64,000 nt of DNA. Origin: a virus (taxonomy: Duplodnaviria > Caudoviricetes). The position numbers and the translations under genes are program-made. The notes beneath the pieces were generated by a model. The model ran no database searches. It had not been told where the DNA came from and worked only from the letters and a program-made list of their open reading frames with translations. The first letter of the stretch is position 1, and the number at the start of each line of letters is the position of its first letter. The stretch is taken from IMG/VR virus record IMGVR_UViG_2895548450_000001, positions 26,778 through 90,777 of that record. One strand, given 5' to 3'. Below, piece by piece: positions 3,882-62,899 of this stretch.

Positions 3882-5342
3882 TTAAGACTGGTTAGCCTTA
3901 GACTTCGCGCTTTTGTCTGAAGCTCGACTAACCGAACGTCCTTGAGGGTCCGAATTAGGGCTAACTTTCTCAGCGTCTACTTCCATTGCGCCACCCACAA
4001 AACCGGTGCCGCTTAACTCAGGAACCGCGTCAGGGCGAATACGTCTGTACATTGCAATATGGTAATCGTCGTCTGTAATCAGACCATCACTTAAATCGGT
4101 GCGTAAACGATTAGACTTAAGGTTTAATTGTGCTTCTAATTCTAGCTCAGAACGTAAATCAATATTGGGGAATCTCACAATTACTCGACTTTCTGAACCT
4201 TGAAGTCGTAAGGCCATCGTCAACATACTGCCTAGAATTTCCCCAATAGGCTCGTTCAAGCTGTCCGCGTTTTTGGCAAAGAGGTTGGCTTCCACCGTCG
4301 CGGTATTAACGCCGGATTCCCCGCGCCCTAGAACGGTAGCCATCGTCTTAAGACCGGCTTGGTTCTGTGCGTTGAGGGTATCGATTACTTCTTGAATCTT
4401 TATCCCCGTCGCAGGGTTCTTTTCATTGAGCATTGACACTTCAGCGCTATCCGTGTGGACCATTGCTTGGTCTGGGCGGAGTGTAGCAAAAGCACTGCCG
4501 ATATCTTGTCTACGCTGAGAAATATACGTCCTCATCTTTTGAGGGTCAGCTTTAACGTCTGCAGGGGCATTTTTGACTAACACTTCCTCAAGAACCTTAA
4601 TAGCGATTCTCGGGAAACCCGTAACTTGCATGATTCGGTACAGGTCGTTAATTACCTGTTGTCGCGCTGCCATGGTATTTATCGCACTGATAAACGGACT
4701 ATGGCCATAAGCCTCAACAGGAGGTTTTCTATACCATGCAACGAAGAAAGACGGGATATCCATTTTAATAGGGTCCCCGCCCCCTTGGTCTTGCCACGGT
4801 ACCATTTTCCCAGGCTCTTTTTCTTGCCAGCGAATACTTGCCATATCGATATTGCGAAGTTCCGTTAATTCAAGCTGGTCCCCAAATACGGTTTCACACC
4901 CAATACCCCCACGGGCCAATAGCATGTAACGAAACTCTTCAGAAAGCTCTCTTAAGGTTTTACGCCTCAGGTAACCCTTGGAATAATCTCGACGGGTCTC
5001 GAGCGCTTCAATAAGTTCATTAACAATCTTCGCTCCGTCGCGGTCTATCGCCCCGTCAGGGTCTTTTACGACAATATAGGGGACAGAGCTACCCGCTGTC
5101 GTTAAGTACGCCCCTAATGCCGCTGACGCGTCAGGATCGGACTTAACCAATTTGAGAATTATTTCTTGGGAGGTATCCGACGTTCTTGTCGAATAGATAT
5201 CTTCAAGGTGTTCCCGATAGTCTGGGAGAGAGAGGACTTCGGTGTTATTTTCTGCGTTATAGGTCGCAGTTTGTGTACTCCCCTTCGGCTTAAACCGATT
5301 AGGCACAATTACCTTAAGTTTGCTGAGTATCGTTCCGGCCAT
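3882..5342 (-). CDS. Portal protein
   Basis: 486 aa between terminase and protease; YGHSPF portal-like segment. Confidence 0.75.
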   Translation of the reverse strand: MAGTILSKLKVIVPNRFKPKGSTQTATYNAENNTEVLSLPDYREHLEDIYSTRTSDTSQEIILKLVKSDPDASAALGAYLTTAGSSVPYIVVKDPDGAIDRDGAKIVNELIEALETRRDYSKGYLRRKTLRELSEEFRYMLLARGGIGCETVFGDQLELTELRNIDMASIRWQEKEPGKMVPWQDQGGGDPIKMDIPSFFVAWYRKPPVEAYGHSPFISAINTMAARQQVINDLYRIMQVTGFPRIAIKVLEEVLVKNAPADVKADPQKMRTYISQRRQDIGSAFATLRPDQAMVHTDSAEVSMLNEKNPATGIKIQEVIDTLNAQNQAGLKTMATVLGRGESGVNTATVEANLFAKNADSLNEPIGEILGSMLTMALRLQGSESRVIVRFPNIDLRSELELEAQLNLKSNRLRTDLSDGLITDDDYHIAMYRRIRPDAVPELSGTGFVGGAMEVDAEKVSPNSDPQGRSVSRASDKSAKSKANQS

Positions 5343-5361
5343 CGTCAATTTCCCAAATTAT

Positions 5362-7143
5362 CTAGTACCGACGAATTATTTTCGTCGGGTTATTGCTGGA
5401 AGAATAACCGATTAAATCGCTCGTGCCAAAGATATCGTTGTCTTGCTGGCCTAAGATTATTCCCCCTCCGTGTCCGGCATTTGAAAAGTCCGTGTTCACG
5501 TTGACCCAACCCTCAAGACCGTCTTTCACGATTTTGTACGATACCGCTGAAGCGAGATAGGCCATGGCGTGGAAAAAGTGGTCCTTGCCCGAGAGCTTGA
5601 CCCACACGGCTTGTTCCTCATCAACTTCCTCTCGGATCATATCTTGAAGGTGAGACTCGATTTTATCTTGGTTGCTGGTGTAACCCTCGATAGACCATGT
5701 TAGGTTTCTTACCCCCGTAGCAACATGGTCTAGCATATCAGTACGGTTTACCTTGATATAATCAACCTCACCTAACGCGTTCTTTTCCTCGGCCACTTCC
5801 TTGCTCTTGGTGTAATGCACCGGCATTATTCGGCCTAAACTCCCATTACGTATATCGTTACTGGTTGGCGTGTAAGGGTACCTATCTAAGCCCCCACCAA
5901 CAAAGTGATATTGCTCATCTAGCTTATTAACCAGCCCTCGTAATTGGTCTATATGACAGAATGTTGCCAAAATAATACGCATCTTTCTCGGGTCGGTCCC
6001 ACAGCCCACAACGATATAACAGGTTACGCCCATATCAATACCGATAAAGTGGGGTTCGCCTTGCCTTGGTTCTGGTATGGCTGGACTCCCCATGGCGAGT
6101 TTTATCTGGCTCAAAGATAGCTTTTGGTCTTCGTTGTTGTAGGGCTCACCCTTAACCGTATTGTAAAAGCCCTTAAGATTGTCGTTAGCTTTGTAGTCGA
6201 AAAGCTGGGCAAAACAATACTGGGGATCAAGTCTGTGGGTTGAGAACGTGCGGATTCGATAACCTCTATTCAGAACGCGGCTTGGATATTTGGCCACCCA
6301 TTCTCGGTTTTCATAATCCGAAAGGTCTAATGGCTTACGACACTTCTCACATACCACGCGTGCCGACTGAATATCTATCTGGCCCGAGTCAATCAAGTTA
6401 TCCGAGATATCTTCGAATTTCTCTAAATCGTCGGGTAGGCCATCAACCTCAACAAACGTTCGACTGAAAACCGGTATCTGGTAATGATTGCAGCAACGGC
6501 ACTTAATAACATACTCATGCTGGTCGCTACGCCGATAACCCCTATCCACCCCAACACCTTCGTAGGTGGGCGTGCTAAAGCGCTGGTTTACACGATGGTC
6601 CGAGCCCTGAAGACGCGAGTTAAAAAGCGATAGCATCGAAGGGTCCGTCAAGTCTATCTCATCGTTAAATACAAAGTCCGCGTTGATACTGGTGGCATCG
6701 GCTTCTGCAGAACCGGTTACGTAAAGGAAGCTGGTACCAATTCGCATAAGGTCCATAGACTGTTTAGTCTTGTCCCCGTTGTCTTGACGAAAGGCTTTAT
6801 CGAAGTTGATTAACGGCTGGATACGCGCTTTTGAAATACGCTTAAACATTCGCTCGTTAGGCATGGTGTATATCAACGAAGTGTTTGGGGTTCGGCTAAG
6901 TATAGCCAGCGCTTTACGTATCTGTATTTCGGTAAGACCAACCTGTGACGGTTTAATACAGTCCAGACTCGGGTGCATATCATCTGCGATTTGCTTCTGA
7001 AAAGGGTAACGCTCAAAACTGAAGGGACGCTTATTCAAAGAGGTGTTCACGCACATCCAGTCCCCATGCGTCATATCTTTTGAATCTTTGTTGTACCTAC
7101 CTTCAGCGGTTGAATACAAATCCATTAGGAACTGGTTGGCCAC
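5362..7143 (-). CDS. Terminase large subunit (lambda GpA-like)
   Basis: KPSQVGLTE Walker A-like, FNDEID Walker B, STPT, CxxC motifs, GIDMG nuclease, DHFFHA; likely GTG start 7143. Confidence 0.88.
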   Translation of the reverse strand: MANQFLMDLYSTAEGRYNKDSKDMTHGDWMCVNTSLNKRPFSFERYPFQKQIADDMHPSLDCIKPSQVGLTEIQIRKALAILSRTPNTSLIYTMPNERMFKRISKARIQPLINFDKAFRQDNGDKTKQSMDLMRIGTSFLYVTGSAEADATSINADFVFNDEIDLTDPSMLSLFNSRLQGSDHRVNQRFSTPTYEGVGVDRGYRRSDQHEYVIKCRCCNHYQIPVFSRTFVEVDGLPDDLEKFEDISDNLIDSGQIDIQSARVVCEKCRKPLDLSDYENREWVAKYPSRVLNRGYRIRTFSTHRLDPQYCFAQLFDYKANDNLKGFYNTVKGEPYNNEDQKLSLSQIKLAMGSPAIPEPRQGEPHFIGIDMGVTCYIVVGCGTDPRKMRIILATFCHIDQLRGLVNKLDEQYHFVGGGLDRYPYTPTSNDIRNGSLGRIMPVHYTKSKEVAEEKNALGEVDYIKVNRTDMLDHVATGVRNLTWSIEGYTSNQDKIESHLQDMIREEVDEEQAVWVKLSGKDHFFHAMAYLASAVSYKIVKDGLEGWVNVNTDFSNAGHGGGIILGQQDNDIFGTSDLIGYSSSNNPTKIIRRY

Positions 7144-7256
7144 GCTACCTCTTTTATCGTCAATTAGTCTAATTTTGGGGTAGATTACGCCGCACTGTGT
7201 ATACAAGCAATCTTTCGGTATGATATTTAACCTATTACAACTTGGAATTGACGATT

Positions 7257-26363: not shown

Positions 26364-26422
26364 TAACACATTCAAGGGGGGGAATGTTCTCCCCTTTTTA
26401 ATTAACTTGTTGGAGATTGACG

Positions 26423-27262
26423 ATGCACCCTGAATTAACAAAACAACTGAAAGCAAACTGCCAAAAACTAGGTCTAGATTTCAACGCACTTGACTTGATT
26501 GGCGAATCTGAAACCCAGATTAGAGATATCACAATTAAGATTGAGCGTGATGAGGATGCGGAGAGCCCTCGAGAGTGGGACAACGTAGGAAAAATGGTGT
26601 GCTGGCACCGTAATTATAGATTAGGTGACGAACAGCCTTCAGGGAGCCACGAAGATTATCGTATTGGCATGGTAGAAGCGGTTGAGCCAGGGTTTGAAGA
26701 TATGCTTCAACGTCTAGAGCATAACTGGCCCTCAACAAACTGGGATGCCGCGGGGACTAAAGAGTATCAAGAGCTGGTTGAAGCGAAGATAGCGGCGAGA
26801 CTTGAGAAATATTACTTTATGCTGCCGCTTTATCTATATGACCATTCAGGCATTACTATGAATACAAGTGGGTTCTCGTGCTCTTGGGACTCGGGCCAAG
26901 TAGGTTTCATCTATGTGTCGAAAGAAAGAGCCCGTGAACAGTATGGATTTAAGCGGTTAACTAAAGAGCGCGTCCAAAAGGTTTATGATTACTTAGACAG
27001 TGAAGTTAAGACCTATGCTTCTTATCTTGAAGGTAATGTTTATGGCTACGTTATTGAAGGTGGTGATATCGATGATTCGTGCTGGGGATATGTCGGCCCA
27101 GATGGTGAAGGTTGGGCATTGTCCGAAGCCTTAGCTATTTTGGCCACCCACAAAAAACAGCGTGTGGAAAGCCGAGTTGACAAAATTAAGACTTGGATCA
27201 AAAACCAAGTACCCTTGCTAAAACGTCGCGAACTGGCAACAGACCTACCAATATTGTTATAG
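26423..27262 (+). CDS. Conserved phage hypothetical protein
   Basis: SPREWDN, LPLYLYDHSG, WDSGQVGFIY motifs. Confidence 0.8.
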   Translation: MHPELTKQLKANCQKLGLDFNALDLIGESETQIRDITIKIERDEDAESPREWDNVGKMVCWHRNYRLGDEQPSGSHEDYRIGMVEAVEPGFEDMLQRLEHNWPSTNWDAAGTKEYQELVEAKIAARLEKYYFMLPLYLYDHSGITMNTSGFSCSWDSGQVGFIYVSKERAREQYGFKRLTKERVQKVYDYLDSEVKTYASYLEGNVYGYVIEGGDIDDSCWGYVGPDGEGWALSEALAILATHKKQRVESRVDKIKTWIKNQVPLLKRRELATDLPILL

Positions 27263-27268
27263 TGATCA

Positions 27269-27300
27269 CGAAATGTTGCCGTAGCTTAGGCAACATTTCG
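27269..27300 (+). terminator. Hairpin closing the early gene array
   Basis: CGAAATGTTGCC/GGCAACATTTCG 12-bp stem; weak T tail. Confidence 0.5.
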
Positions 27301-27415
27301 CCTCTTAGATCACTCTATTTCGCCTTAAACCGTCTAAAAACCTTAGACTTTAGTTTTAGGCATACGCTTTGCAATTGACTCCATATAAACAAAACAATCC
27401 AAATGGAGAAACACA

Positions 27416-27568
27416 ATGAAGAAGTTAGGATTTGCAATCGCGCTAGTATTAGGAATGGGTTCTACAATGGCTATGGCAGACGTTGAGAGCAACGTAGTGG
27501 TCCCTAAACCGTCGGATACACCAAAGACTAAATCGCTCAAGCCAAAGAAGCCTACCGTAGGTTTTTAA
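27416..27568 (+). CDS. 50-aa secreted peptide precursor (not in ORF track)
   Basis: GGAG RBS; MKKLGFAIALVLGMGSTMAMA|DVESNVVVPKPSDTPKTKSLKPKKPTVGF, Sec signal with AxA site. Confidence 0.8.
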   Translation: MKKLGFAIALVLGMGSTMAMADVESNVVVPKPSDTPKTKSLKPKKPTVGF

Positions 27569-27578
27569 AGCAGAACAA

Positions 27579-27603
27579 AAAAGAGCGGCTAAGCCGCTCT
27601 TTT
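27579..27603. terminator. Bidirectional terminator between convergent genes
   Basis: AAAAGAGCGGCT-A-AGCCGCTCTTTT. Confidence 0.75.
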
Positions 27604-28347
27604 AAATAGAACCTCGAGTTTTCTTGGAATAGACCCCGCGAGGTCTTTAACGTAGCACTCTTGAATACTGGCATGAAACAATAAAGCTAAAAGCATAAGC
27701 GTTTGAGTTACAAAGACCACGTTAAACAAGAAATAGAAGCTCGGTAAATGCAACGCATACTCGATATCTACTAAACGGTAATCATAGAGCAAAGGCCCAG
27801 TCTCATGAATACCAAAATGTATCGTAAAGATATGATAGTAAGCCGCGACACAAAAACAAACGTACCACCCCGCTTTGTAAATAAGCGTTAAGGCTGTACC
27901 TAAATTGGTGTCCTCTGTCTTATCTAGAAGATATAAACCCGCGCTACGAAATTTTTCTGTTTTAATTAATTGCTCCCCTAACCAGAACTGGAACTTAACT
28001 CGGTAAGAGTATATAAGCACCGTAATAATGCCTGGGGCGTAAGTCATAGCAATCGCCGTATGAAGCGTTGGCGAAAGCGAAAACATAAAACTGGAAATCA
28101 CTTGCTCGAAAATCGAGGCCAGAACAATTAACCCGAGTACGGCGCGATTATTAAAACCACGAATCATGATGCCAGCGAGTATCACACAAGTGAACATAAC
28201 AGAGTAGTAGCTGACAAGATCAGAAATGGAGTTTAATGCCCACTGTCCGTTGTCTAGAAAATTATTGAGCACCGCTACAAATATGAGAAGTGATGATACA
28301 AAGAGTGAGAATCTTAACCCGTAGGTTTTGAAGAAATGTCGATACAT
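27589..28347 (-). CDS. Multi-pass (~6 TM) membrane protein
   Basis: About six hydrophobic segments; starts 4 bp after the HTH gene stop. Confidence 0.8.
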   Translation of the reverse strand: MYRHFFKTYGLRFSLFVSSLLIFVAVLNNFLDNGQWALNSISDLVSYYSVMFTCVILAGIMIRGFNNRAVLGLIVLASIFEQVISSFMFSLSPTLHTAIAMTYAPGIITVLIYSYRVKFQFWLGEQLIKTEKFRSAGLYLLDKTEDTNLGTALTLIYKAGWYVCFCVAAYYHIFTIHFGIHETGPLLYDYRLVDIEYALHLPSFYFLFNVVFVTQTLMLLALLFHASIQECYVKDLAGSIPRKLEVLFKRAA

Positions 28348-28351
28348 TGAC

Positions 28352-28720
28352 TTACTCCCAGAACGTTGTCAGAAAACGTCTAAAGTCCGAAAACGGGATA
28401 TCAGATAACGTTATCTTACTAACTACAGACCCTAAGCTCTTTTTCATGTGAGCACGCTTAGCGATTTGTTGGTACCAGTAAAATTCTTCGGTGGGGATTT
28501 TTCCGTATCGTTCAGCGTTAGATATCGTGTTCTTGTGTACGTCAGCAGCGATAGCTAACTCTTCTTGGGTTAACCGATAGTTCTGACGCATTTGCTTAAA
28601 CTTTCGAGCCATAATGCGGCGTCTTTCGAGTTCCCAAGGGGGTTCTAAATTATCGTCAATTTTTCTAGACAAGGCGTGTACTCCATCAAGGCCATATTGT
28701 AAATCTTTTACTACAGACAA
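28352..28720 (-). CDS. XRE-family HTH regulator, candidate prophage repressor (start TTG 28720 or ATG 28612)
   Basis: RQNYRLTQEELAIAADVHKNTISNAERYG; divergent from replication genes; no S24 peptidase domain. Confidence 0.8.
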   Translation of the reverse strand: MSVVKDLQYGLDGVHALSRKIDDNLEPPWELERRRIMARKFKQMRQNYRLTQEELAIAADVHKNTISNAERYGKIPTEEFYWYQQIAKRAHMKKSLGSVVSKITLSDIPFSDFRRFLTTFWE

Positions 28721-28749
28721 AAACGGACAAATAATAACCTATTAAATTA

Positions 28750-28856
28750 ATTAAATAAAGTTAATTTATTTAATATTTATAAAAACACAAATTGATTGTG
28801 TTTTTACAAAATAACTGCGTTTCTGACTTGATATACGAAAGTTGAAAGCGTAGTTT
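28750..28856. promoter_or_regulatory. Divergent control region with palindromes and sigma70-like promoter
   Basis: ATTAAATAAA-N5-TTTATTTAAT 28750; AAAAACACA-N7-TGTGTTTTT 28781-28805; TTGATA-17-TAGTTT 28828-28856. Confidence 0.65.
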
Positions 28857-28901
28857 TATCTCTGCCTACGGGCTTAACTTTAAAATTTGGAAATTGACGA
28901 T

Positions 28902-30077
28902 ATGAATATCCCCGCTAATACAGCAAACACTACCTCTTTAGATACCGACGTTCGCTTCGAACAAACCCTTTTCAAGGTTCACTCTGGTGGTAAAGTCGGC
29001 TCATGGCATATCAAGGTTACGCTTAACCCAGATGATACCGCCAGTACACTTGTTACGTCTCGAAAGGTCTTAGGTGGTAAGGGTGTTGAAACCCCCACGG
29101 ATTACACGGAAGGCAAGAATATCGGCCGCAGCAACGAAACCACCCCAATTATGCAAGCGGTGTTCGAAGCCCAAAGCAAAGTCAAAAAGCAGCTAGATAA
29201 AGGCTATGTTGAAGAACAGCCGGAAGAAGGTGCAGCGGTAACGAACTCCCTCGGACTAGTTAAACCTATGCTGGCCCAACCTATCGAGAAAGTAAAAAGC
29301 TGGGAATTCCCAGTCTTTGTGCAGCCTAAGATGGATGGGCACCGATGCTTAGCCACTATCAAAGACGGTAAAGTATTCCTTTACTCTCGAGGCGGCAAAC
29401 CTATTACTGTGGTCCATATCATGGAACGTTTACAGGCTCTCTACGATAAAGGTATTTGGGATGGTACGACGTTGGATGGTGAGCTTTACTGTCATGGTAA
29501 AGCCTTTGAAAATATTTCTAGCCTCATCAAGAAGCCCCAAGAAGACAGTAAACACCTGTCGTACAATATCTATGATGTTGTTATGGATGCTCCTTACGTG
29601 GATCGATTTGATTACTTGGACGCTCGTATAACTGAAAGCTCTTACCCTACCCTCTGTCTAACGGCCTGTTACAAAGTTTCAGACCAAGCGAGTATTGACC
29701 ACTATCATGCTTCTTGGACCTCTAACGGCTATGAAGGCACGATGATTCGCCAAGGGGATGCCCCCTATGAAACGGACAAGCGCAGCGCTTCTTTGATGAA
29801 GAGAAAGGACGAAGAAGACGCGGAGTTTGAGATTATCGGTATTCGCAAAGGTAAGCCTAATAAGCGTCTAGGTACCGAAGTCGGTATTTATGTTTGTCAA
29901 ACCGCGGATGGTAAAACGTTTGATGTTACGGCGCCTGGGGATGCGAACGAGAAACACGACCATGCTATGAATGGTCATAAGAATATCGGTAAAAAGCTCA
30001 CCGTGTTCTCATATGGCTACACCCAAGAAGGTAAGCCATGCCATATCACAAATTCTCGTATTCGTGAGGACCTGTAA
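28902..30077 (+). CDS. ATP-dependent DNA ligase
   Basis: QPKMDG, LDGELY, YEGTMIR motifs. Confidence 0.92.
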   Translation: MNIPANTANTTSLDTDVRFEQTLFKVHSGGKVGSWHIKVTLNPDDTASTLVTSRKVLGGKGVETPTDYTEGKNIGRSNETTPIMQAVFEAQSKVKKQLDKGYVEEQPEEGAAVTNSLGLVKPMLAQPIEKVKSWEFPVFVQPKMDGHRCLATIKDGKVFLYSRGGKPITVVHIMERLQALYDKGIWDGTTLDGELYCHGKAFENISSLIKKPQEDSKHLSYNIYDVVMDAPYVDRFDYLDARITESSYPTLCLTACYKVSDQASIDHYHASWTSNGYEGTMIRQGDAPYETDKRSASLMKRKDEEDAEFEIIGIRKGKPNKRLGTEVGIYVCQTADGKTFDVTAPGDANEKHDHAMNGHKNIGKKLTVFSYGYTQEGKPCHITNSRIREDL

Positions 30078-30732: not shown

Positions 30733-31002
30733 ATGGCTCAAAATATGAGAGCGGATTACCTATTAAAGTTAAGAAGGGTGCAAGCCCAGCTTTCTAAAAT
30801 TAGGGACTTAGGTTCGAGCGCGAACTTTGAGACTTTACTTAAAGATATCGACGAAGCTAACACCATAGCGGGAGCTTTAGGGATTGAGGAACCTTACCCT
30901 GATAACCTAATAGGTGAAATTAAGGCCATGCAAGACCGTTTAACGCGTTATCAACAAACCGGCTTAGACGTCCCGAGTTTAGGTAATGTCGTCAAACACT
31001 AA
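30733..31002 (+). CDS. Hypothetical protein
   Basis: AGGAGG RBS. Confidence 0.65.
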   Translation: MAQNMRADYLLKLRRVQAQLSKIRDLGSSANFETLLKDIDEANTIAGALGIEEPYPDNLIGEIKAMQDRLTRYQQTGLDVPSLGNVVKH

Positions 31003-31264
31003 ACCCCAACCCAAGTTGGAGCCTATAACGCTCCAACTTGAGGTTGTATCCTCGCTTCACAAAGCGATTGGGATGCGAATAGATTTCCATACGACTTTTA
31101 CGTTTGAAGATAACGGAGAGGCCTTACGGAAGAAATTAGATATGGCTGAGAGTAGCTTCAGCCGATTACGACGCGGTACTAAAGAAATAACTTTGACAGA
31201 CTTACAAATTCTGGCAGAATTCTTTAATACTAGGGTAATAAATATTATTAAAGCTAATTTTTAA
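30986..31264 (+). CDS. HTH DNA-binding protein
   Basis: LRKKLDMAESSFSRLRRG..ITLTDLQILAEFF XRE-like. Confidence 0.65.
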   Translation: MSSNTKPQPKLEPITLQLEVVSSLHKAIGMRIDFHTTFTFEDNGEALRKKLDMAESSFSRLRRGTKEITLTDLQILAEFFNTRVINIIKANF

Positions 31265-31983: not shown

Positions 31984-32027
31984 CAATAAGAGCAACTAAT
32001 AAATTGACGATAAGAGACACGAAAGCC

Positions 32028-32369
32028 ATGTTGAAATTTTCAGAAAGACTCGCGCTAATCAAGAATGCCCTAAAAGAGAAAGGGCTTAGCCAGAAGGACG
32101 TAGCCCAAGCTTTAAACAGCAACCAAGCTAAAGTCTCTCTGGCGTTATCTGGCACTAAAGAAATCCCTATGGAGTTTCTTCTAGAGCTGTTACGTGAGTC
32201 TGAATACCCCATTGAAAAGGTCTTCCCCACTTTGCAACGTGATTTGAAGGATATTGTCACTTTGCTCGAGAAAGGGGCCAGTCAACAGGCAACGGTAAAT
32301 TTACTTAATTTGATGAAATTGACTAACCACTATGACAGACCTCAAGAAGATACCAAAGCAGCCAGCTAA
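32028..32369 (+). CDS. XRE/Cro-like HTH regulator
   Basis: KEKGLSQKDVAQALNSNQAKVSLALSG. Confidence 0.8.
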   Translation: MLKFSERLALIKNALKEKGLSQKDVAQALNSNQAKVSLALSGTKEIPMEFLLELLRESEYPIEKVFPTLQRDLKDIVTLLEKGASQQATVNLLNLMKLTNHYDRPQEDTKAAS

Positions 32370-53271: not shown

Positions 53272-53344
53272 CTTTTATAGGCTGGTGAAAGCCAGCCGAA
53301 CCTACCCTTTAGGGTATAACTTTTAAAATTTGGAAATTGACGAT

Positions 53345-53593
53345 ATGACGAACTCAGCTAATGATAACTACCCTGTTGCTATTAATGTGACTACTAGCCT
53401 AAGAACCGTACCACTCACTAAATATTGTGAACTGTCTGGTGAAGACATAGAAACGGTACGACAGAGAATTAAACGCGGACACTGGGTAAAAGGCGTACAT
53501 GCAATTAAGCCACCCCATATCCGCGAACTTTGGATTGACTTAGAAGCGGTAGAACAATGGATAAGAAATGGGGGCAACTCCCTCGCGGGGTAA
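53345..53593 (+). CDS. xis: Excisionase
   Basis: VPLTKYCELSG...WIDLEAVEQW; overlaps integrase. Confidence 0.8.
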   Translation: MTNSANDNYPVAINVTTSLRTVPLTKYCELSGEDIETVRQRIKRGHWVKGVHAIKPPHIRELWIDLEAVEQWIRNGGNSLAG

Positions 53594-54795
53594 CTATTCG
53601 GCCTGGGGCCAAAGAAGCCCGTATTCAAATTAACTTCGAATACAAAGGGGTTCGCTGTCGCGAACTCCTTAAGGTTCCAGTCAACAAATCTAATATCCGA
53701 TACGCGGGTAACTTACGCGGCGAGATATTAAATAAGATCGAACGTGAAACTTTCCGGTACGCGGATTACTTCCCGAGCTCACCAAAGCTGAAAATATTCG
53801 GTGGCGCGGTAGCGTGGGGCAAGACTGTTGAAGCGTACTTAGAGGAATATATTGAGAGCGTCAAGAAACGGGGGCTCTCACCTTCCACGATTAAAGGCTA
53901 CGAAAAACTTAAGACCTCGGTTAAGGAGCTCCACCCTATTCCGGTAACCGAACTTTCCCCACAAGTTTTGAAAAGCTTTGTTCTCAAGTCTGGGAACTCA
54001 CCTAAAACCCTGCGAAACAAGTTCAGCTTTTTACGTACCGCGCTGGCCGAGGCCGTAACCGACGGACTGGTATCTACCAACCCAATCGACGGTGTGAAGC
54101 TTTCTAACTACGTGGAAAAAGATAACAAGGTCGATTTAGACGGTGGCCACGATGATATTGACCCGTTCACGCCGCAAGAAGTGGAAGCTATCTATGAGCA
54201 TTGCAGACCGGAAGAACTTAATATCGTTGAGCTGGTTTTCAATACAGGGATGCGGCCTAGTGAATGGTCAGCGCTTAAATGGAACGAGGTTGATTTCATT
54301 CACAACACTTTAGTCGTAAAAGCGGCCATTGTGCATAACGAGATCAAGGGTCCCAAATCGAAAGCCGGTAAGCGTGCCATACCTTTAAATGAAAGTGCTA
54401 TGAATGCCCTGAACCGGCAAAGAGAACTTTCCTATCTGGGTCGTGGTTTTGTGTTCCCTAAAAACTTAAAGTTTGGAATGGAACTGCCAGAGGGGGAGTT
54501 GAACCGGATAAACCCAGACTCATTTCGTAAACACAAATGGAGTCGAATTCTCACTGCGGCAAAAGTAAGGTACCGGTACCCCTATCAAATGCGTCATACT
54601 TTCGCGACCCGACATATTAGTGAAGGAATAAACTTGTGGCAGTTGGCAAATTGGATGGGCCACTCTTCGCCAGAAATGCTATTTCGACACTACGGTAAAT
54701 TCATTGAAGATTATGAGAAGAAAATCCAAAATGACACGAGCGCGGCACGAGACACCAATGGCCCGAACAAAAAATCAAGTTTATCAGCTATTTAG
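53557..54795 (+). CDS. int: Prophage tyrosine integrase
   Basis: Arm-binding N-domain, TGMRPSE, YQMRHTFA, MGH, HY. Confidence 0.93.
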   Translation: MDKKWGQLPRGVTIRPGAKEARIQINFEYKGVRCRELLKVPVNKSNIRYAGNLRGEILNKIERETFRYADYFPSSPKLKIFGGAVAWGKTVEAYLEEYIESVKKRGLSPSTIKGYEKLKTSVKELHPIPVTELSPQVLKSFVLKSGNSPKTLRNKFSFLRTALAEAVTDGLVSTNPIDGVKLSNYVEKDNKVDLDGGHDDIDPFTPQEVEAIYEHCRPEELNIVELVFNTGMRPSEWSALKWNEVDFIHNTLVVKAAIVHNEIKGPKSKAGKRAIPLNESAMNALNRQRELSYLGRGFVFPKNLKFGMELPEGELNRINPDSFRKHKWSRILTAAKVRYRYPYQMRHTFATRHISEGINLWQLANWMGHSSPEMLFRHYGKFIEDYEKKIQNDTSAARDTNGPNKKSSLSAI

Positions 54796-54949: not shown

Positions 54950-54998
54950 GGTACACCATTGGGTACACTACGCAAACTAGATGAAATTGGTGTACCCA
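54950..54998. repeat. GGTACAC direct/inverted repeats, likely integrase arm sites
   Basis: GGTACAC at 54950 and 54962, GTGTACCCA at 54990. Confidence 0.55.
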
Positions 54999-55000
54999 TT

Positions 55001-56242
55001 ATGGCAAAAGTTACTACACGGCTCTCTGATAAAGAAATCAAATCTGCAAAGCCAAGCGAAAAAGAATATAACCTGTTTGATGGAGATGGCCTGCGACTTC
55101 GTATTAAGCCAAATGGTTCTAAAAATTGGATATTTAATTATTACAGGCCTACTAGCCGTAAAAGAGCTAATCTCAGTCTAGGTAAATATCCTGACCTATC
55201 ACTAGCGAATGCTCGTAAAGCGACGCTTGAAGCAAACGAGTTACTTGCCCAAGGCATTGACCCTCAAGAAGAACGAAAACGTCAGCAGCAGGAATATAAG
55301 TCTGGCCACCAGCATACATTCAGTAACGTAGCTAAAGAATGGTTTGAAATTAAAAAGGACGATATTACACCTGATTACGCGGTTGATATCTGGCGCTCTT
55401 TAGAGCTACACATATTCCCTTCAATATCGAAAGTTCCGGTAAGTGCTATTACTGCCCCACAAATTATCGACTTACTTAAGCCAATCGAGGCTAAAGGAAG
55501 TTTAGAAACGGTAAAACGCTTATCACAGCGCCTAAATGAAATAATGAACTTCGCTACAAACTGTGGATTTATTCAAGCTAACCCACTTGTAGGGATTAAA
55601 GCTGCATTTAAAAAGCCGAAAAAGGAAAACATGGCTGCACTGAAGCCAGCAGAACTACCTGAGCTTATGGGTGCAATTGCTAACGCTAGTATTAAGCGAA
55701 CCACACGCTGTCTTATTGAGTGGCAACTGCACACTATGACAAGGCCGAGTGAAGCATCTGGTGCTATGTGGAAAGAGATTGATATGGAAAGTAAGGTTTG
55801 GACAATTCCGTCGGAACGTATGAAAAAACGCAGAGATCAGCGTATTCCACTTACTGACCAAATGTTGGCTATTCTCGAAGTTATGAAGCCAATCAGCGGT
55901 CATCGAGAGTTTATATTCCCTTCTGACCGTGACCCAAAAAAGCCATGTAACAGCCAGACTGCAAATATGGCACTTAAGCGAATGGGCTTTGCTGGCCGTT
56001 TAGTGAGCCACGGTCTCCGCTCTCTGGCAAGTACTACGCTGAATGAACAAGGTTTTGACCGCGATTTAATTGAAGCCGCGCTTGCTCATGTAGACGACAA
56101 CCAAGTACGAAGTGCCTATAACAGAACTGACTATTTAGAGCGCCGCCGCCCTATGATGAATTGGTGGAGTGAGCATATTCTTGAAGCTGCGATGGGCTGT
56201 AATTCCATTGCTAGCGTTAACCTCTTTAAAGTGTATTGTTAA
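55001..56242 (+). CDS. intA: P4/CP4-57-type tyrosine integrase
   Basis: LFDGDGL, LGKYPDLSLA, TRPSE, SHGLR, LAH, AYNR. Confidence 0.92.
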   Translation: MAKVTTRLSDKEIKSAKPSEKEYNLFDGDGLRLRIKPNGSKNWIFNYYRPTSRKRANLSLGKYPDLSLANARKATLEANELLAQGIDPQEERKRQQQEYKSGHQHTFSNVAKEWFEIKKDDITPDYAVDIWRSLELHIFPSISKVPVSAITAPQIIDLLKPIEAKGSLETVKRLSQRLNEIMNFATNCGFIQANPLVGIKAAFKKPKKENMAALKPAELPELMGAIANASIKRTTRCLIEWQLHTMTRPSEASGAMWKEIDMESKVWTIPSERMKKRRDQRIPLTDQMLAILEVMKPISGHREFIFPSDRDPKKPCNSQTANMALKRMGFAGRLVSHGLRSLASTTLNEQGFDRDLIEAALAHVDDNQVRSAYNRTDYLERRRPMMNWWSEHILEAAMGCNSIASVNLFKVYC

Positions 56243-56378
56243 CAAGCTTATAAAACTATATTTTCCTATTAGGCCGCACTGCTCATGTTTTTAATTAAGC
56301 GGAAATTATGCGGTTAAATATAGTAGGTTCCGCTTTGAAAGAAGACAATGCCCCTTTTCAGTGCTCAGAGAGATTTTA

Positions 56379-56558
56379 ATGGGAATAGACAAAATTAATC
56401 AGCTCCAATTTTGCAATTTGCAGTCGAATCAAAAATATAGGCTACTCCAATTTCTGGAGCAAAAAGATAAAGAGATACTGCTTCATTCGATCGCAAATTA
56501 CATCTCTCTCCCGATAGAGCAGATAGAATTTGCTTCGGCTCCTGAATATATTATATGA
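56379..56558 (+). CDS. Short ORF, possibly frameshifted N-terminus of the helicase
   Basis: Overlaps helicase ORF; deleting one T at 56529-56531 fuses them. Confidence 0.4.
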   Translation: MGIDKINQLQFCNLQSNQKYRLLQFLEQKDKEILLHSIANYISLPIEQIEFASAPEYII

Positions 56559-58278
56559 TGCCTTGGTAACTTTCTCTGAACAAGTTAAAGAAACGGCTGA
56601 CTTTGATGAAAAACTAATCTTAGAATTTCTTGAATCTTCAAAGTTTTATGACACTACAGAAAAAGCACTTGTAGTTGACACTAGCATCAATAGCCTAAGT
56701 ACTGAAGACTCTAAGTCCACTACCAAAATAAGTTTTCAAGACAAACTTTGTCCCCCCCCAAATCTTTATAACGCTACTGTAAGGTTCAACGTTCAAAAGC
56801 CTACACTAGAACAACAAGAAGCTCTTGATCTTTGTAGTGGAGGAATACTAGTTAATAGTTTTGCAGGCACTGGTAAAACAACATTTTCAGGACAGGTAGC
56901 CGAAAAGCTAGGTTATGACAACACATTGTACACTGCTTTTTTAAAGGAAAATGCGAGCGAGGCACGCGAGCGAGTCACAAAGCAAGCATATACCCAAGAT
57001 GCATTGGCATACCACTATGTATTGAAATGCTCACCTTTTAAAGACTCTTTGAATCCTAAGTTGGCAAAAAAGCATTCCGATGCAACAGCGCTTCAAATGC
57101 TATTGGGATTGCCAGTGAAATTGGATTTAGGGGGAAAGACTGTAAAGTCTTACGTCATTTCAAGATTAATACAAGAAACTGTTTATAATTTCTGCAATAG
57201 CATTGAAGAAGAAGTCTCTGTAGCACATGTTCCTAAACAAGTTTTTTCAGCGCAAGCAGTAAAACAAATCAGAGTTTGGGCGACAGCGTACTGGGACTTT
57301 TTGATTTCTTCGCGCAATCACGACAAACACATAATTAAGTTTTCTCATCTCATGAAGTTCTGGGCATTGAGGCCCGATATCCAATTACCATACGAATTTT
57401 CAAACTTCATAGTAGATGAAGCACAAGATACAAACGGGGCGTTCTATCAAGTAATGCAGAATCATATCGATCGCAACTTTGTCGTGATAGGAGACCGCCA
57501 TCAGCAATTATTTCAATGGCGAGGGGCGATAAACACCATGAATTTGTTTAAGTTGCCAAAGAAATCGCTAACGATGTCACATCGATTCGGTGAAAGTATT
57601 GCTAATGTAGCTAACAATGTTCTGGCAAAGCACAGCGAGCCGCCTAGCGCGCTAATAACTGGTAACCAAGACCTCGAATCAAAAATTGTTTATTACCATC
57701 CAAATGAGCCTTTCCCGAAGGACGTAGGTGCTATTCTAACGAGAACTAGAACAGAAATAATTTCCATCGCTAAAAATGAGATTGAGCAGGGTCATGCAAT
57801 CAGTGTCAAAACTGAATTTAATAGTATTAGGTTTCTCTGCCAGAATATTATTGCCCTAGCTGAAAATAGACATAACGACATTAGACATCCAACAATAGCT
57901 AACTGTTACTCACTGAGTAATCTGGAAACTGAGCTAGAAAATTCGCCTGATGGCGATCTGTACTTTGCGCTCAAACTATATAAGAAATTTAGCAAAGAGA
58001 TTTTATATATCATTGACCAAGTGGAACGACTCAATCAACCAGAGTCAGAAACTACTCGGCTAATCAGTACGACTCACGCTTTAAAGGGCCGCGAATGGAA
58101 AACGATAGTAATCGCAAGCGATTATTCATATTTGATAGAGTCGCCAAATGTGCAGATAGATGACGAATTATGTGTTTTATATGTAGCCATTACTAGAGCA
58201 AAAAGAAAAGCTTACATGCCTTATGGCCTAAAACCTTATTTCGATAAACACAATAATATTGCTAAATCGCAACTATAG
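56530..58278 (+). CDS. UvrD/Rep-like SF1 helicase
   Basis: AGTGKT, DEAQD, GDRHQQ, SHRFG, KGREW, LYVAITRAK. Confidence 0.9.
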   Translation: MLRLLNILYDALVTFSEQVKETADFDEKLILEFLESSKFYDTTEKALVVDTSINSLSTEDSKSTTKISFQDKLCPPPNLYNATVRFNVQKPTLEQQEALDLCSGGILVNSFAGTGKTTFSGQVAEKLGYDNTLYTAFLKENASEARERVTKQAYTQDALAYHYVLKCSPFKDSLNPKLAKKHSDATALQMLLGLPVKLDLGGKTVKSYVISRLIQETVYNFCNSIEEEVSVAHVPKQVFSAQAVKQIRVWATAYWDFLISSRNHDKHIIKFSHLMKFWALRPDIQLPYEFSNFIVDEAQDTNGAFYQVMQNHIDRNFVVIGDRHQQLFQWRGAINTMNLFKLPKKSLTMSHRFGESIANVANNVLAKHSEPPSALITGNQDLESKIVYYHPNEPFPKDVGAILTRTRTEIISIAKNEIEQGHAISVKTEFNSIRFLCQNIIALAENRHNDIRHPTIANCYSLSNLETELENSPDGDLYFALKLYKKFSKEILYIIDQVERLNQPESETTRLISTTHALKGREWKTIVIASDYSYLIESPNVQIDDELCVLYVAITRAKRKAYMPYGLKPYFDKHNNIAKSQL

Positions 58279-58661
58279 TCCAAAAGGAATTATTTTGGCT
58301 TAATAGATGAGTCGCTGTGCAAATCAATGCTAACCAAGTAAGAAGCGTACGAAGCAAAAACTGATTACTTTGCGTGCTACTGTCCAGCAACTGGACTCAT
58401 AGAGTAAGCATAATCTAAGTACTTAAATAAGATAGCAGTAGTCTTACTATTCCTTTAGTGAAATGAGAAACTAGGTTCTGGCATTTTCCACCTTGTATCT
58501 GTTATCTTAACCTTTGTTCTATTCAACTAACGTACAGTAAGCCCCCTTTTTTGTATACCAAAGTCGTGATTTATCAGTACGGTCGACTATTTGAGGTTGA
58601 GAATGTCAGATGGAAGTTTGGTCTAAAAAAGAATAAAAGATAAAATTATAAGAGAATAAAA

Positions 58662-61918: not shown

Positions 61919-61940
61919 AATTCAGTTACATTAAAACCTC

Positions 61941-62088
61941 TAGGGGAGCTCTGGATACCTAAACACCTCTGCCGATAAGGCAGTCCAGTAAGGGTATTTA
62001 AGTTGCGGTTGGCTCGTTCAAGCCGATGCAACGTTATCAGTCATAAAAAGCTGGTAGTGCTCTATGCACACACAACTCAGCTCCCCTA
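61941..62088 (+). ncRNA. DRT3-associated ncRNA with ACACACA tract
   Basis: Closed by TAGGGGAGCT (61941)/AGCTCCCCTA (62079); internal hairpins; ACACACA 62068-62074; position matches DRT3 layout. Confidence 0.78.
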
Positions 62089-62168
62089 CCCCCGTTTCCT
62101 TTTTCGTTGTTATAGCTCATTAAACAGCGATTAAAATCACTGTACGTTAGTTGAAGATATTTAAATCA

Positions 62169-62735
62169 TCAGGTGTTCCAGTGCCTTTTGACTGTCGCAA
62201 TCCCTAAACCCAGAATTTCTGCAGTTTTTGACTGAGACAATCCTTCAGCTTTCTTCTCCTGAACGGACAACTTTGTTGCTATAGCCGCAGGTCTGCCGAG
62301 CTTCTTTCCCTCTGCTTTAGCTCGCTCAAGCCCTTCTCTTGTCCTCTCTCTAATTCTATTACGCTCAAACTCTGCAAATGCTGAGAACATTTGAAGCATA
62401 AGCTTACCTTCTGCACTAGAAAGATCAGCCACTGGCAAATCTAGGCACACCACCTTGATTCCTTTATCAGTGAGTATATTAATTGTACTTTGCACATCAA
62501 TGTTGTCTCGACCTAAACGGTCTAATTTCAAAACCACCAGCATATCGCCCTTTTCCATCTTGTGGTTGATGAGCATTTTAAACTTTTCCCGTTTAATAGC
62601 TTCAACTGAACCTGAAACCGTTTCACTAACTATCCGTGAATCGATGACTTCATATCCTTTTTGACGGATGGCTATTACTTGGTTTTCTGTCGTTTGCTCT
62701 GTGGTAGAAACTCGACAATAAGCAAATATACGCAT
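62169..62735 (-). CDS. Serine recombinase (resolvase/invertase)
   Basis: MRIFAYCRVST, LDRLGR, FAEFER, GRP, C-terminal HTH; ATG 62735. Confidence 0.93.
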   Translation of the reverse strand: MRIFAYCRVSTTEQTTENQVIAIRQKGYEVIDSRIVSETVSGSVEAIKREKFKMLINHKMEKGDMLVVLKLDRLGRDNIDVQSTINILTDKGIKVVCLDLPVADLSSAEGKLMLQMFSAFAEFERNRIRERTREGLERAKAEGKKLGRPAAIATKLSVQEKKAEGLSQSKTAEILGLGIATVKRHWNT

Positions 62736-62756
62736 TATTCGATTAACTTCCTTTTT

Positions 62757-62876: not shown

Positions 62877-62899
62877 TGAGATTGACCTACTTATGAATG

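What the first reader, a model, noticed from the sequence alone, without database searches (positions are those of the whole stretch)
27416..28856. Secreted peptide + membrane protein + XRE regulator at the prophage control locus: candidate peptide-signalling switch in a Gram-negative phage
Seen: an unannotated 50-aa ORF with RBS, a clear Sec signal peptide (…AMA|) and a 29-aa Pro/Lys-rich mature part ending KKPTVGF. It converges at a shared bidirectional terminator on a two-gene operon (XRE HTH, then ~6-TM protein 4 bp later). These are the only credible minus-strand genes between 7.2 and 54.8 kb, and they are divergent from the replication operon across a palindrome-rich spacer. Known: this is the position of cI-type immunity loci; lambda-type repressors carry an S24 autocleavage domain, absent here; arbitrium in Bacillus phages uses a secreted peptide with a cytoplasmic RRNPP receptor. 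Inference: peptide = signal, membrane protein = sensor, HTH = output, i.e. an arbitrium analogue built from unrelated parts. Alternative: superinfection exclusion or toxin/immunity.
Basis: partly seen in the sequence, partly recalled or inferred. Interest (0 to 1): 0.86.

Follow-up and report, generated by a model that had tools for sequence, protein, structure and literature searches.

The report
Phage repressor with add-on envelope cassette
A marine temperate phage carries a repressor gene next to an optional two-gene insert, an unknown membrane protein and a small secreted peptide, that looks like an accessory envelope module and not like a peptide-signalling switch.

Summary
The 50-aa ORF is a real gene (dN/dS 0.02-0.06) with a Sec-type leader. 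It converges on a bidirectional terminator with an XRE-HTH gene and a 6-TM protein 4 nt downstream. The element is an ~80 kb temperate phage with an integrase and no S24 peptidase.

The signalling interpretation is not supported. Two more distant relatives, one a 94%-complete provirus with integrase, keep the HTH gene divergent from the ligase operon. Both lack the peptide and the membrane protein entirely. The repressor is therefore the conserved core, and peptide plus membrane protein are a 1,089-nt accessory insert.

The peptide's C-terminal 11 residues are invariant in 7 variants, so it shows no arbitrium-like diversification. The membrane protein has no known domain or fold and only short periplasmic loops, and its conserved residues lie mostly on the cytoplasmic side.

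Best reading (confidence 0.5): an immunity repressor plus a repressor-co-transcribed membrane protein and a secreted peptide, probably acting in exclusion or defence. The architecture resembles lambda cI-rexAB, but the proteins are orphans. Peptide signalling keeps about 8%.

The parts
26417..27262 (+). Last gene of the upstream plus-strand operon ('up281', PHROG 6186, function unknown). It is the left boundary of the accessory insert. The true ATG is probably at 26423, after the GGAGATTGACG motif.
   Evidence: It is 85% identical in close relatives and 67% in L027/L028, where its stop lies 2 nt from the HTH stop.
27263..27415 (+). Conserved non-coding leader of the peptide gene. It holds a stable hairpin (about 27269-27300, no U-tract) and the GGAG RBS at 27405-27408. 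No canonical sigma-70 promoter was found.
   Evidence: The hairpin folds at -21.2 kcal/mol, z -5.5. The region is 113-125 of 155 identical to relatives, against 25-28 of 50 at third codon positions of the peptide ORF. The promoter scan found none on the + strand here.
27416..27568 (+). Gene for a 50-aa pre-peptide. It has a Sec-type leader (MKKLGFAIALVLGMGSTMAMA) and a 29-aa Pro/Lys-rich mature part ending SLKPKKPTVGF.
   Evidence: dN/dS is 0.019-0.058. Seven distinct variants keep an invariant C-terminal 11 aa. No Pfam, PHROG, NCBIfam or PADLOC match.
27579..27603 (.). Bidirectional intrinsic terminator shared by the peptide gene and the HTH-membrane operon. It overlaps the last codons and the stop codon of the membrane protein.
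   Evidence: It is conserved in relatives.
27589..28347 (-). Orphan 252-aa inner-membrane protein with 6 TM helices, N-in/C-in. It is translationally coupled to the HTH gene through a 4-nt gap.
   Evidence: The family is only 5 clusters at 50% identity among 1.84 billion representatives. No family match and no significant fold match.
28352..28672 (-). XRE-family HTH protein, 106 aa from the TTG at 28672 (the longest ORF runs to 28720). It is the conserved core of the locus and the likely immunity or early-promoter repressor.
   Evidence: HTH_3 at 24.8 bits against cut-off 23. PHROG transcriptional repressor and regulator families match. Start-codon argument. It is present alone in L027/L028 at 67% identity with an invariant helix-turn-helix stretch.
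28673..28901 (.). Divergent control region. It holds GGAG at 28681-28684, a -10-like TACAAT at 28696-28701 (minus), palindromes at 28740-28775 and 28776-28810, and a promoter-like TTGATA (28828-28833), 17-nt spacer, TAGTTT (28851-28856) on the plus strand ahead of the ligase.
   Evidence: The promoter-like hexamers ahead of the ligase keep their position in both phage lineages. The hexamer assignments are my reading and come from no tool.
28902..30077 (+). ATP-dependent DNA ligase, first gene of the divergent replication operon. The true ATG follows the GGAAATTGACGAT motif.
   Evidence: PF01068 at 1e-19 and PHROG 114 at 7e-74. Motif.

Best explanation
The locus is the early-control (immunity) region of an ~80 kb temperate marine phage.

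Core. The conserved core is a small XRE-type repressor gene transcribed leftward, back to back with the promoter of the ligase/replication operon.

Insert. In one sub-lineage, which includes the window, a 1,089-nt accessory insert (27263-28351) lies between the repressor's stop codon and the last gene of the upstream operon. It carries two genes.
(i) An orphan 6-TM inner-membrane protein. Its ATG lies 2-4 nt after the repressor stop, so it is made whenever the repressor is made, that is, in lysogens.
(ii) A convergent gene for a 50-aa Sec-exported (or signal-anchored) Pro/Lys-rich peptide, with its own conserved leader region and RBS.
Both transcripts end at one bidirectional terminator.

Function. 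The pair most likely acts in the cell envelope as a prophage-expressed accessory function, such as superinfection exclusion or another defence or host-modulating role. It is not part of the lysis-lysogeny decision circuit.

Shown:
- The three genes are real, and their topology and coupling are as described.
- The peptide and the membrane protein are present together or absent together.
- The repressor occurs alone in temperate relatives.

Inferred:
- The repressor role of the HTH.
- Expression of the membrane protein in lysogens.
- The envelope or exclusion function.
- That the peptide and the membrane protein work together.
For: Temperate phage:
- Terminase, portal, primase, polymerase and integrase are present.
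- The integrase is found in 4 of 4 close relatives, two of which have direct terminal repeats at ~80-81 kb.

HTH as core:
- It is an XRE HTH.
- It is the only sizeable minus-strand block in 47 kb of plus-strand genes.
- It lies divergent from the ligase operon across a spacer with palindromes and conserved promoter-like hexamers.
- In L027 and L028 the HTH (67% identical, helix-turn-helix stretch invariant) sits flush against the upstream gene with nothing in between.

Accessory nature of the insert:
- Peptide and membrane protein occur together in 7 of 7 records of one lineage: the window, L001-L004, L017 and L018.
- Both are absent from 2 of 2 records of the sister lineage, searched over the whole records with positive controls. 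One of those two is a 94%-complete provirus with integrase.
- The nearest cultured relative, Pseudoalteromonas prophage KB12-38 (terminase 50% identical, same architecture), has none of the three genes.

Coupling:
- The gap between HTH stop and membrane-protein ATG is 2-4 nt in all relatives.
- The terminator is shared.

Independent unit for the peptide:
- Its leader has a 155-column alignment that is 73-81% identical to relatives, against 50-56% at the gene's own third codon positions.
- It has its own GGAG RBS and a terminator.

Purifying selection:
- On the peptide, dN/dS is 0.02-0.06.
- Of 30 columns invariant across remote homologues of the membrane protein, most lie in cytoplasmic segments: H4/F5, G64-N67, Y115, E145/T147/N148 and E230...P241.
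Against: - No experiment or RNA data show when any of the three genes is expressed.
- No canonical promoter was found for the peptide gene. It could be read through from the upstream lytic operon instead of being a prophage-expressed unit.
- No similarity to any known exclusion, abortive-infection or defence protein was found in Pfam, PHROGs, NCBIfam or PADLOC. No informative fold match was found. The proposed function rests on architecture alone.
- The joint presence and absence of the peptide and the membrane protein reflects at most one gain or loss event of adjacent genes. It is weak evidence that they act together.
- The repressor role of the HTH is positional. No operator was defined, and the main palindrome (28776-28810) is not conserved in the L027 lineage even though the recognition helix is invariant.
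- Two other HTH_3-like ORFs exist on the plus strand, at 30986-31264 and 32004-32369.
Confidence: 0.5

Rival explanations
1. Peptide-signalling switch. The exported peptide, whole or trimmed to a short C-terminal piece, accumulates outside cells. The 6-TM protein senses it and alters the activity of the co-expressed HTH repressor, biasing lysis versus lysogeny. In the light of the sister lineage, this could only be an add-on layer on a repressor that can act alone.
For: - The peptide has the general shape of a propeptide: a basic N-terminus, a hydrophobic core and a conserved C-terminus. This is the shape the RRNPP literature describes (passages of PMC10075063).
- The C-terminal SLKPKKPTVGF is invariant in 7 variants and is preceded by Lys-rich potential cleavage sites.
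- Peptide and membrane protein are gained or lost together.
- Periplasmic loop 3 of the membrane protein (residues 181-203) is nearly invariant in 7 records although the protein overall is only 76-82% identical.
- Peptide position 18 (K or E) tracks loop-1 position 35 (Q or K) in those 7 records. This is anecdotal, because it involves at most 3 independent lineages.
- The membrane protein is translationally coupled to the HTH.
Against: - The HTH stands alone at the same locus in 2 of 2 sister-lineage records, one an integrase-bearing provirus.
- There is no diversification of the putative signal among related phages.
- The membrane protein has no recognisable sensor, kinase or DNA-binding-partner domain. 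Its periplasmic loops are 12, 5 and 14 residues by the hydropathy scan, and conservation is mostly cytoplasmic.
- A 29-aa peptide released into a Gram-negative periplasm must also cross two outer membranes. This point rests on established knowledge and was not tested.
- No AimR/TPR-type receptor is present. The only NCBIfam AimR hit is E 0.0018, 17 bits against a cut-off of 70, on the HTH part of ORF 32004-32369.
Confidence: 0.08
2. Unlinked genes. The peptide gene is simply the last gene of the upstream plus-strand (lytic, early) operon and acts in the periplasm during lytic growth. The membrane protein is a separate repressor-linked gene, and the two share only a terminator.
For: - No sigma-70-like promoter was found upstream of the peptide gene.
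- The hairpin after the upstream gene lacks a U-tract, so read-through is plausible.
- Joint gain or loss of adjacent genes needs only one event.
Against: - The 153-nt leader is unusually long for this tightly packed genome and is more conserved than synonymous sites.
- The peptide gene uses a GGAG-type RBS, not the GGAAATTGACG-ATG start motif found at 45 places in the record. Many genes lack that motif, so this is weak.
- The insert boundaries enclose exactly these two genes.
Confidence: 0.2
3. Secreted toxin plus immunity. The cationic Pro/Lys-rich peptide is a bacteriocin-like or envelope-active toxin, and the 6-TM protein is its immunity protein. This would give lysogens an advantage over non-lysogens or stabilise the prophage.
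For: - The pairing is a small exported cationic peptide (net +3) next to a multi-pass membrane protein of no known family, gained and lost together.
- The putative immunity gene is tied to the repressor transcript, so lysogens would always be protected.
Against: - No similarity to any bacteriocin, microcin or immunity family.
- No export or outer-membrane release genes lie in the insert.
- The peptide is under strong purifying selection with no sign of the diversification common in toxin-immunity pairs.
Confidence: 0.08
4. Toxin-antitoxin or abortive-infection pair. The XRE protein is an antitoxin and autorepressor, and the downstream membrane protein is a membrane-depolarising toxin triggered on superinfection.
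For: - The gene order is HTH first with a 2-4 nt gap, which is typical of type II TA operons.
- The weak best NCBIfam hits of the HTH are antitoxin families: Y4mF/HipB at 4e-5 and MqsA at 9e-5, both far below their cut-offs.
Against: - The same HTH occurs without any downstream partner in 2 of 2 sister-lineage records, at the same divergent position relative to the ligase promoter.
- No PADLOC match for the membrane protein.
Confidence: 0.08

Closest known systems
Lambda immunity operon cI-rexA-rexB (recalled from established knowledge; not retrieved by any search)
   Same: A repressor gene is transcribed divergently from the early lytic operon. Downstream genes on the same transcript are therefore expressed in lysogens. 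One of them is a multi-pass inner-membrane protein that is not needed for repression.
   Different: - There is no sequence or fold similarity to RexA or RexB: zero Pfam or PHROG families for the membrane protein.
- The repressor here is a 106-aa XRE protein without an S24 cleavage domain.
- There is no RexA-like cytoplasmic partner. Instead there is a convergent secreted peptide.
Prophage superinfection-exclusion membrane proteins such as P22 SieA
   Same: SieA is a small prophage-expressed inner-membrane protein with predicted TM helices. It is present in only some members of a phage group and is dispensable for lysogeny. In P22 it blocks DNA delivery (abstract and passages of PMC10883804).
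   Different: - SieA is 162-164 aa with 3 predicted TM helices and needs no other phage protein. Here the protein is 252 aa with 6 TM helices and is paired with a secreted peptide.
- No homology was detected.
- Exclusion activity is untested.
T4 Imm (membrane) and Sp (periplasmic) exclusion proteins (recalled; not retrieved by any search)
   Same: An inner-membrane protein combined with a signal-peptide-bearing periplasmic protein, both acting at the envelope against incoming phage.
   Different: - The T4 genes are not adjacent.
- T4 is virulent.
- There is no sequence relationship.
- The function here is untested.
Arbitrium (AimP-AimR-AimX) and other RRNPP peptide systems of Bacillota phages
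   Same: A short ORF encodes a signal sequence followed by a conserved C-terminus, next to a phage regulator of the lysis-lysogeny region. The propeptide profile is described in PMC10075063 (passages).
   Different: - There is no cytoplasmic TPR receptor.
- The peptide does not vary between related phages.
- The host has an outer membrane.
- The regulator works without the peptide in sister phages.
Morons (independent accessory transcription units in phage genomes)
   Same: The genes are present in some members of a phage group and absent in others. They are bounded by a hairpin and a terminator and inserted between conserved genes. The definition was seen only in the search listing and abstract start of PMC3594210.
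   Different: - Only the peptide gene could be a self-contained unit, and its promoter was not found.
- The membrane-protein gene rides on the repressor transcript instead.

Membership tests
XRE-family helix-turn-helix regulators (Pfam HTH_3, PF01381) | Match to the HTH_3 profile above the curated cut-off | tested here: met
   24.8 bits against cut-off 23, E 2.2e-5, residues 42-79 of the long ORF. Confirmed by the six-frame search of the record at 24.7 bits.
Lambda CI / LexA-type self-cleaving repressors | C-terminal Peptidase_S24 domain | tested here: not met
   No PF00717 match at E<=1 anywhere in the 90,777-nt record. The control genomes matched in 12 of 14.
Prophage master repressor (functional class) | Binds operators at early lytic promoters and maintains lysogeny | not testable with these tools
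   Only positional evidence: divergent from the ligase operon, palindromes in the spacer, conserved in both lineages. No operator was defined.
Arbitrium / RRNPP peptide communication | Secreted propeptide with N-terminal signal sequence and conserved C-terminal mature peptide | tested here: inconclusive
   The form is compatible, but it is generic for any small exported protein. No signal-peptide predictor or mass spectrometry was available.
Arbitrium / RRNPP peptide communication | Adjacent cytoplasmic TPR-type receptor (AimR-like) | tested here: not met
   No TPR or AimR match for the HTH or the membrane protein. The only AimR hit in the window is 17.4 bits against a cut-off of 70, on another ORF.
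Arbitrium / RRNPP peptide communication | Peptide sequence differs between related phages, giving signal specificity | tested here: not met
   The C-terminal 11 residues are identical in 7 distinct variants. Changes are confined to mature positions 1-17 and 18.
Sec (type I) signal peptide | Basic n-region, hydrophobic h-region, small residues at -3 and -1, no lipobox Cys | tested here: met
   Direct reading of MKK / LGFAIALVLGMG / STMAMA|D. Judged by inspection only; cleavage itself is not shown.
Moron / accessory insert | Presence/absence polymorphism among related phages at a fixed site | tested here: met
   Present in 7 of 7 records of one lineage and absent in 2 of 2 of the sister lineage, at the same junction.
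Moron / accessory insert | Own promoter and terminator | tested here: inconclusive
   The terminator is found. The leader is conserved, but no consensus promoter was found.
Known exclusion, abortive-infection or defence protein families (RexB, SieA, Imm, PADLOC set) | Sequence or fold similarity to a described member | tested here: inconclusive
   Zero families for the peptide and the membrane protein in Pfam, PHROGs, NCBIfam and PADLOC at E<=0.1. Foldseek found no hit at E<=0.001. VIA-align's best Z was 8.6, on generic helical bundles.
Type II toxin-antitoxin operon | Antitoxin and toxin always paired | tested here: not met
   The HTH occurs without a downstream partner in L027 and L028.

The most novel reading that the evidence does not exclude
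The peptide and the 6-TM protein form a ligand-receptor pair built from parts unrelated to any known quorum-sensing system. They would have been grafted onto a stand-alone XRE repressor. The exported peptide, or a short fragment carrying the invariant C-terminal KPTVGF, would report the density of infected or lysogenic cells. The membrane protein, made in fixed ratio with the repressor, would convert that report into a change in repressor activity. This would be the first peptide-based lysis-lysogeny communication system in a phage of a Gram-negative host.
Probability: 0.08. Interest if true: 0.85.

Novelty: new variant of a known kind. Interest (0 to 1): 0.35.

Why it matters
If the best reading is right, this is one more case of phages parking accessory envelope genes directly behind the repressor gene, so that lysogens express them. 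Here the proteins belong to no described family, and the cassette includes a small secreted peptide.

The natural pair of phage lineages, one with the cassette and one without, offers a clean comparative system for finding the cassette's function. Its practical value is as a candidate for a new exclusion or defence mechanism in marine Gammaproteobacteria-type phages.

If the low-probability signalling reading were right, phage peptide communication would extend beyond Bacillota.

Tried and rejected
Family searches
- Pfam, PHROGs, NCBIfam and PADLOC gave nothing for the peptide or the membrane protein.
- The ESM Atlas gave only unnamed clusters, at 0.78-0.87, below the level the tool itself treats as meaningful.

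Structure
- The AF2 model of the membrane protein has pLDDT 75 and pTM 0.67.
- Foldseek against PDB found no hit at E<=0.001. The top rows were rhodopsins at E 0.25-0.9 with TM 0.26-0.39.
- VIA-align wide gave a best Z of 8.6, on helical bundles, within the tool's stated background for helical models.
- The AF2 model of the HTH was too poor to use: pLDDT 52.6.

Context of the remote membrane-protein homologues (P0010 39%, P0012 30%, P0013 29% identity)
- Two genome-contig scans found nothing.
- The metagenome scan returned only close relatives.
- tblastn against phages and plasmids found nothing.
- 75 distant loci carrying the upstream-gene family held none of the queries.
- A profile search added no members.

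Operator hunt
- The ACACAA...TTGTGT palindrome occurs once in the window.
- A 12-mer search of the spacer against the window found no recurring operator. It did uncover the gene-start motif.

Other checks
- Rfam matched only sub-threshold hits on the terminator hairpin.
- Expression: no RNA holder listed.
- Literature search was badly specified (min_terms 1) and gave nothing useful.

Untested ideas
- The mature N-terminus (ESNVVV) loosely recalls a TonB-box pentapeptide, and a periplasmic mimic could block TonB-dependent phage entry. The consensus is recalled from memory. The passages of PMC11658791 that I read state only that such a conserved N-terminal pentapeptide exists. Treat this as an untested lead only.
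- The leader might stay uncleaved and act as a small membrane-anchored regulator in the style of MgrB (recalled). The leader's near-invariance is compatible with this, but the sample is too small to judge.

Papers
- Passages read (find mode): PMC10883804, PMC10075063, PMC11658791.
- Search listing or abstract start only: PMC3594210, PMC10432266, PMC9228384, PMC10232697.
- Supplements were not opened. None bears on a claim made here.


Full report
WHAT THE ELEMENT IS
- The window is the right-hand 64 kb of a 90,777-nt provirus record.
- It encodes portal and large terminase on the minus strand (3882-7206).
- A 47-kb run of plus-strand genes follows: primase, ATP-dependent ligase, helicase, family-A DNA polymerase, an origin-binding/primase-helicase protein and SbcCD-like nucleases. 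It ends with a tyrosine integrase at 53557-54795.
- Four close relatives in the viral collection are 76-83 kb. Two have direct terminal repeats and one is a provirus. All four carry an integrase 99% identical to this one.
- The nearest cultured relative by terminase (50% identity) is the 78-kb Pseudoalteromonas prophage KB12-38. It has the same overall layout, including excisionase and integrase at the right end.
- This is therefore a family of ~80 kb temperate marine siphovirus-like phages.
- No Peptidase_S24 domain exists anywhere in the record.

THE OBSERVATION

Peptide gene
- The 50-aa ORF (27416-27568) has GGAG 7 nt upstream and a leader with the n/h/c layout of a Sec signal peptide ending AMA|D.
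- The mature part is 29 residues with 5 Pro and 6 Lys.
- It is a real gene. Against four relatives, 22-25 of 27-30 nucleotide differences are at third codon positions, and dN/dS is 0.019-0.058. That is as low as for the ligase, at 0.040-0.057.

Leader and terminator
- The 153-nt leader contains a stable hairpin of -21.2 kcal/mol, z -5.5.
- The leader is 73-81% identical to relatives, while the gene's own third positions are only 50-56% identical. It is therefore constrained non-coding sequence.
- The promoter scan found no consensus sigma-70 site there.
- The terminator at 27579-27603 is bidirectional and includes the last codons of the membrane-protein gene.

Minus-strand genes
- The minus-strand pair is an XRE-type HTH gene and a 252-aa protein whose ATG follows the HTH stop by 4 nt (2-4 nt in relatives).
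- I correct the HTH start to the TTG at 28672, giving 106 aa. All relatives have GTG there, GGAG lies 8 nt upstream, and two relatives have a 1-nt deletion that destroys the longer frame.

Membrane protein
- Hydropathy and the AF2 model agree on six TM helices with both termini in the cytoplasm.
- By the hydropathy scan the periplasmic loops are 12, 5 and 14 residues. A 36-residue cytoplasmic loop and a 28-residue cytoplasmic tail complete the protein.

Strand layout
- The 1.3-kb stretch occupied by these two genes is the only large interruption of plus-strand coding between 7.2 and 54.8 kb.

HOW NARROW THE FAMILIES ARE
- The membrane protein has no match in Pfam, PHROGs, NCBIfam or PADLOC.
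- An exhaustive HMMER pass over 1.84 billion cluster representatives found five clusters in all. Three of them are remote homologues at 29-39% identity.
- Thirty columns are invariant across these homologues. They include MY-HF at the N-terminus, GFNN between TM2 and TM3, E81 in TM3, E-TN before TM5, G184/L187 in periplasmic loop 3, QT in TM6, and E-Y-KDL-G--P in the C-terminal tail.
- Most of these columns face the cytoplasm.
- No solved structure resembles the model beyond generic helical bundles.
- The peptide has relatives only within this phage group.

THE DECISIVE COMPARISON
- A scan with the ligase brought in two further viral records, L027 (G005) and L028 (G006). Their ligase is 82% identical, the upstream gene 67%, the downstream gene 72% and the HTH 67%.
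- In both, the HTH gene lies in the same place and orientation, divergent from the ligase. Its stop codon is 2 nt from the stop of the upstream gene.
- Neither the peptide nor the membrane protein is found in the loci by tblastn at E<=1.
- Neither is found anywhere in the whole records. In the same calls the peptide query and the family profile did find the genes in two positive-control records.
- G006 is a 94%-complete provirus with an integrase 81% identical to the window's.
- So the repressor-type gene is the conserved core of the locus and suffices for a temperate lifestyle.
- The stretch 27263-28351 (hairpin, peptide gene, terminator, membrane-protein gene) is a single accessory insert.
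- The insert is present in 7 of 7 records of one lineage and absent in 2 of 2 of the other.
- KB12-38 has none of the three genes.

WHAT THIS DOES TO THE SIGNALLING MODEL
- A circuit in which the membrane protein is the obligatory sensor feeding the HTH is not tenable, because the HTH works without it.
- An optional add-on remains possible, but other evidence points away from it.
- The putative signal is not diversified: the leader is nearly invariant and the last 11 residues are invariant in 7 distinct variants, while the membrane protein diverges to 76-82% identity.
- The membrane protein exposes very little to the periplasm and carries no known signalling domain.
- Three points in favour should be stated.
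  1. The peptide has the generic propeptide shape described for RRNPP systems (passages of PMC10075063).
  2. Periplasmic loop 3 of the membrane protein is nearly invariant in the seven records.
  3. A K/E change at peptide position 18 goes with a Q/K change at loop-1 position 35.
- With at most three independent lineages, the third point is an anecdote and not a test.

MOST LIKELY MECHANISM
- The HTH is the phage's early-promoter repressor.
  - It is transcribed leftward from a promoter just upstream of its start.
  - A TACAAT at 28696-28701 keeps T1, A2 and T6 in all relatives while positions 4-5 vary.
  - It acts on the ligase-operon promoter. TTGATA, a 17-nt spacer and TAGTTT at 28828-28856 are conserved in position in both lineages.
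  - These hexamer assignments are my reading.
- In the window's lineage the repressor message continues into the membrane-protein gene, so lysogens make the membrane protein.
- The peptide gene is either an independent unit or the tail of the upstream operon. This is unresolved.
- By analogy of architecture with lambda cI-rexAB (recalled), and with prophage exclusion proteins such as P22 SieA, I take the cassette to be an envelope-acting accessory function. [quoted passage not shown]
- Exclusion or defence is the leading guess for that function.
- The function is inferred from architecture alone, and no homology supports it.

NOVELTY AND VERDICT
- The architecture is a familiar one: accessory genes parked behind the repressor.
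- The proteins are new families, and the pairing with a secreted peptide is unusual. Hence 'new variant of a known kind'.
- Interest is moderate (0.35). The striking interpretation is not supported, but an orphan, strongly conserved peptide/membrane-protein pair with natural cassette-free sister phages is a tractable target.
- The most novel reading not excluded is a peptide-receptor add-on to the repressor, at about 8%.

Noticed in passing
whole record; e.g. window 13712, 19039, 23104, 25360, 26005, 28889, 31280, 34294, 35410, 39250, 44625, 49411, 50211, 53332 (+); 3817, 5353 (-): A 13-nt motif GGAAATTGACGAT abuts or overlaps the ATG of many phage genes, most often as GGAAATTGACG-ATG. There are 45 hits with <=2 mismatches in 90.8 kb, against 2.2 in mononucleotide shuffles. 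Nearly all are in the orientation of the local genes, and none lies to the right of 53332. This is far more conserved than a Shine-Dalgarno plus spacer needs to be, so it may be a phage-wide translational or transcriptional control site. It makes ORF listing false TTG starts ('MEIDDM...'). The three genes of the finding use plain GGAG sites instead.
   Followed up: partly
window 54959-64000: Directly right of the prophage integrase lies a second island. It holds another tyrosine integrase (54959-56242), a UvrD/GajB-like helicase (56530-58278), a DRT type 3 defence pair (Drt3a 58662-59912 at E 4e-103; Drt3b 59906-61918 at E 2.5e-169), a serine resolvase (62169-62795, minus) and a further integrase-family ORF (62900-64000, minus). 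This looks like an integration hotspot with tandem mobile elements, included in the 'provirus' record.
   Followed up: partly
window 53557-54795 and L005-L008: The integrase is 99% identical at the protein level in all four close relatives, while neighbouring replication genes are 76-94% identical. This suggests recent exchange of the integration module or unusually strong constraint on it.
   Followed up: no
window 30986-31264 and 32004-32369 (+): Two further small HTH_3-like ORFs (15.6 and 24.0 bits) lie inside the replication operon, 2-3.5 kb downstream of the ligase. They are candidates for Cro-like, CII-like or antirepressor regulators.
   Followed up: no
window 53330-53593 (+): An 87-aa ORF with the start motif lies immediately upstream of the integrase and overlaps it. 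Its position matches the annotated excisionase of KB12-38. No family match in NCBIfam.
   Followed up: partly
protein P0003 versus record MF098558.1: One close homologue of the membrane protein is labelled by NCBI as coming from a Tenacibaculum sp. assembly (Bacteroidota). The nearest cultured phage relative is from Pseudoalteromonas (Gammaproteobacteria). The host range of this phage group, or the purity of that assembly, is uncertain.
   Followed up: no
protein P0007: A 264-aa database protein joins the first ~150 residues of a membrane-protein homologue to an SMC/ABC-type C-terminus on a 2.5-kb contig. It is most likely an assembly chimera and not a natural fusion.
   Followed up: no
L027:4407-4431 and window 27269-27300: Both lineages keep a stable 11-12 bp hairpin at the 3' end of the upstream gene. 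In L027 it is inside the coding sequence, and in the window it is just after the stop. The sequences differ. It could be an RNA-stability or processing element for the upstream operon.
   Followed up: no
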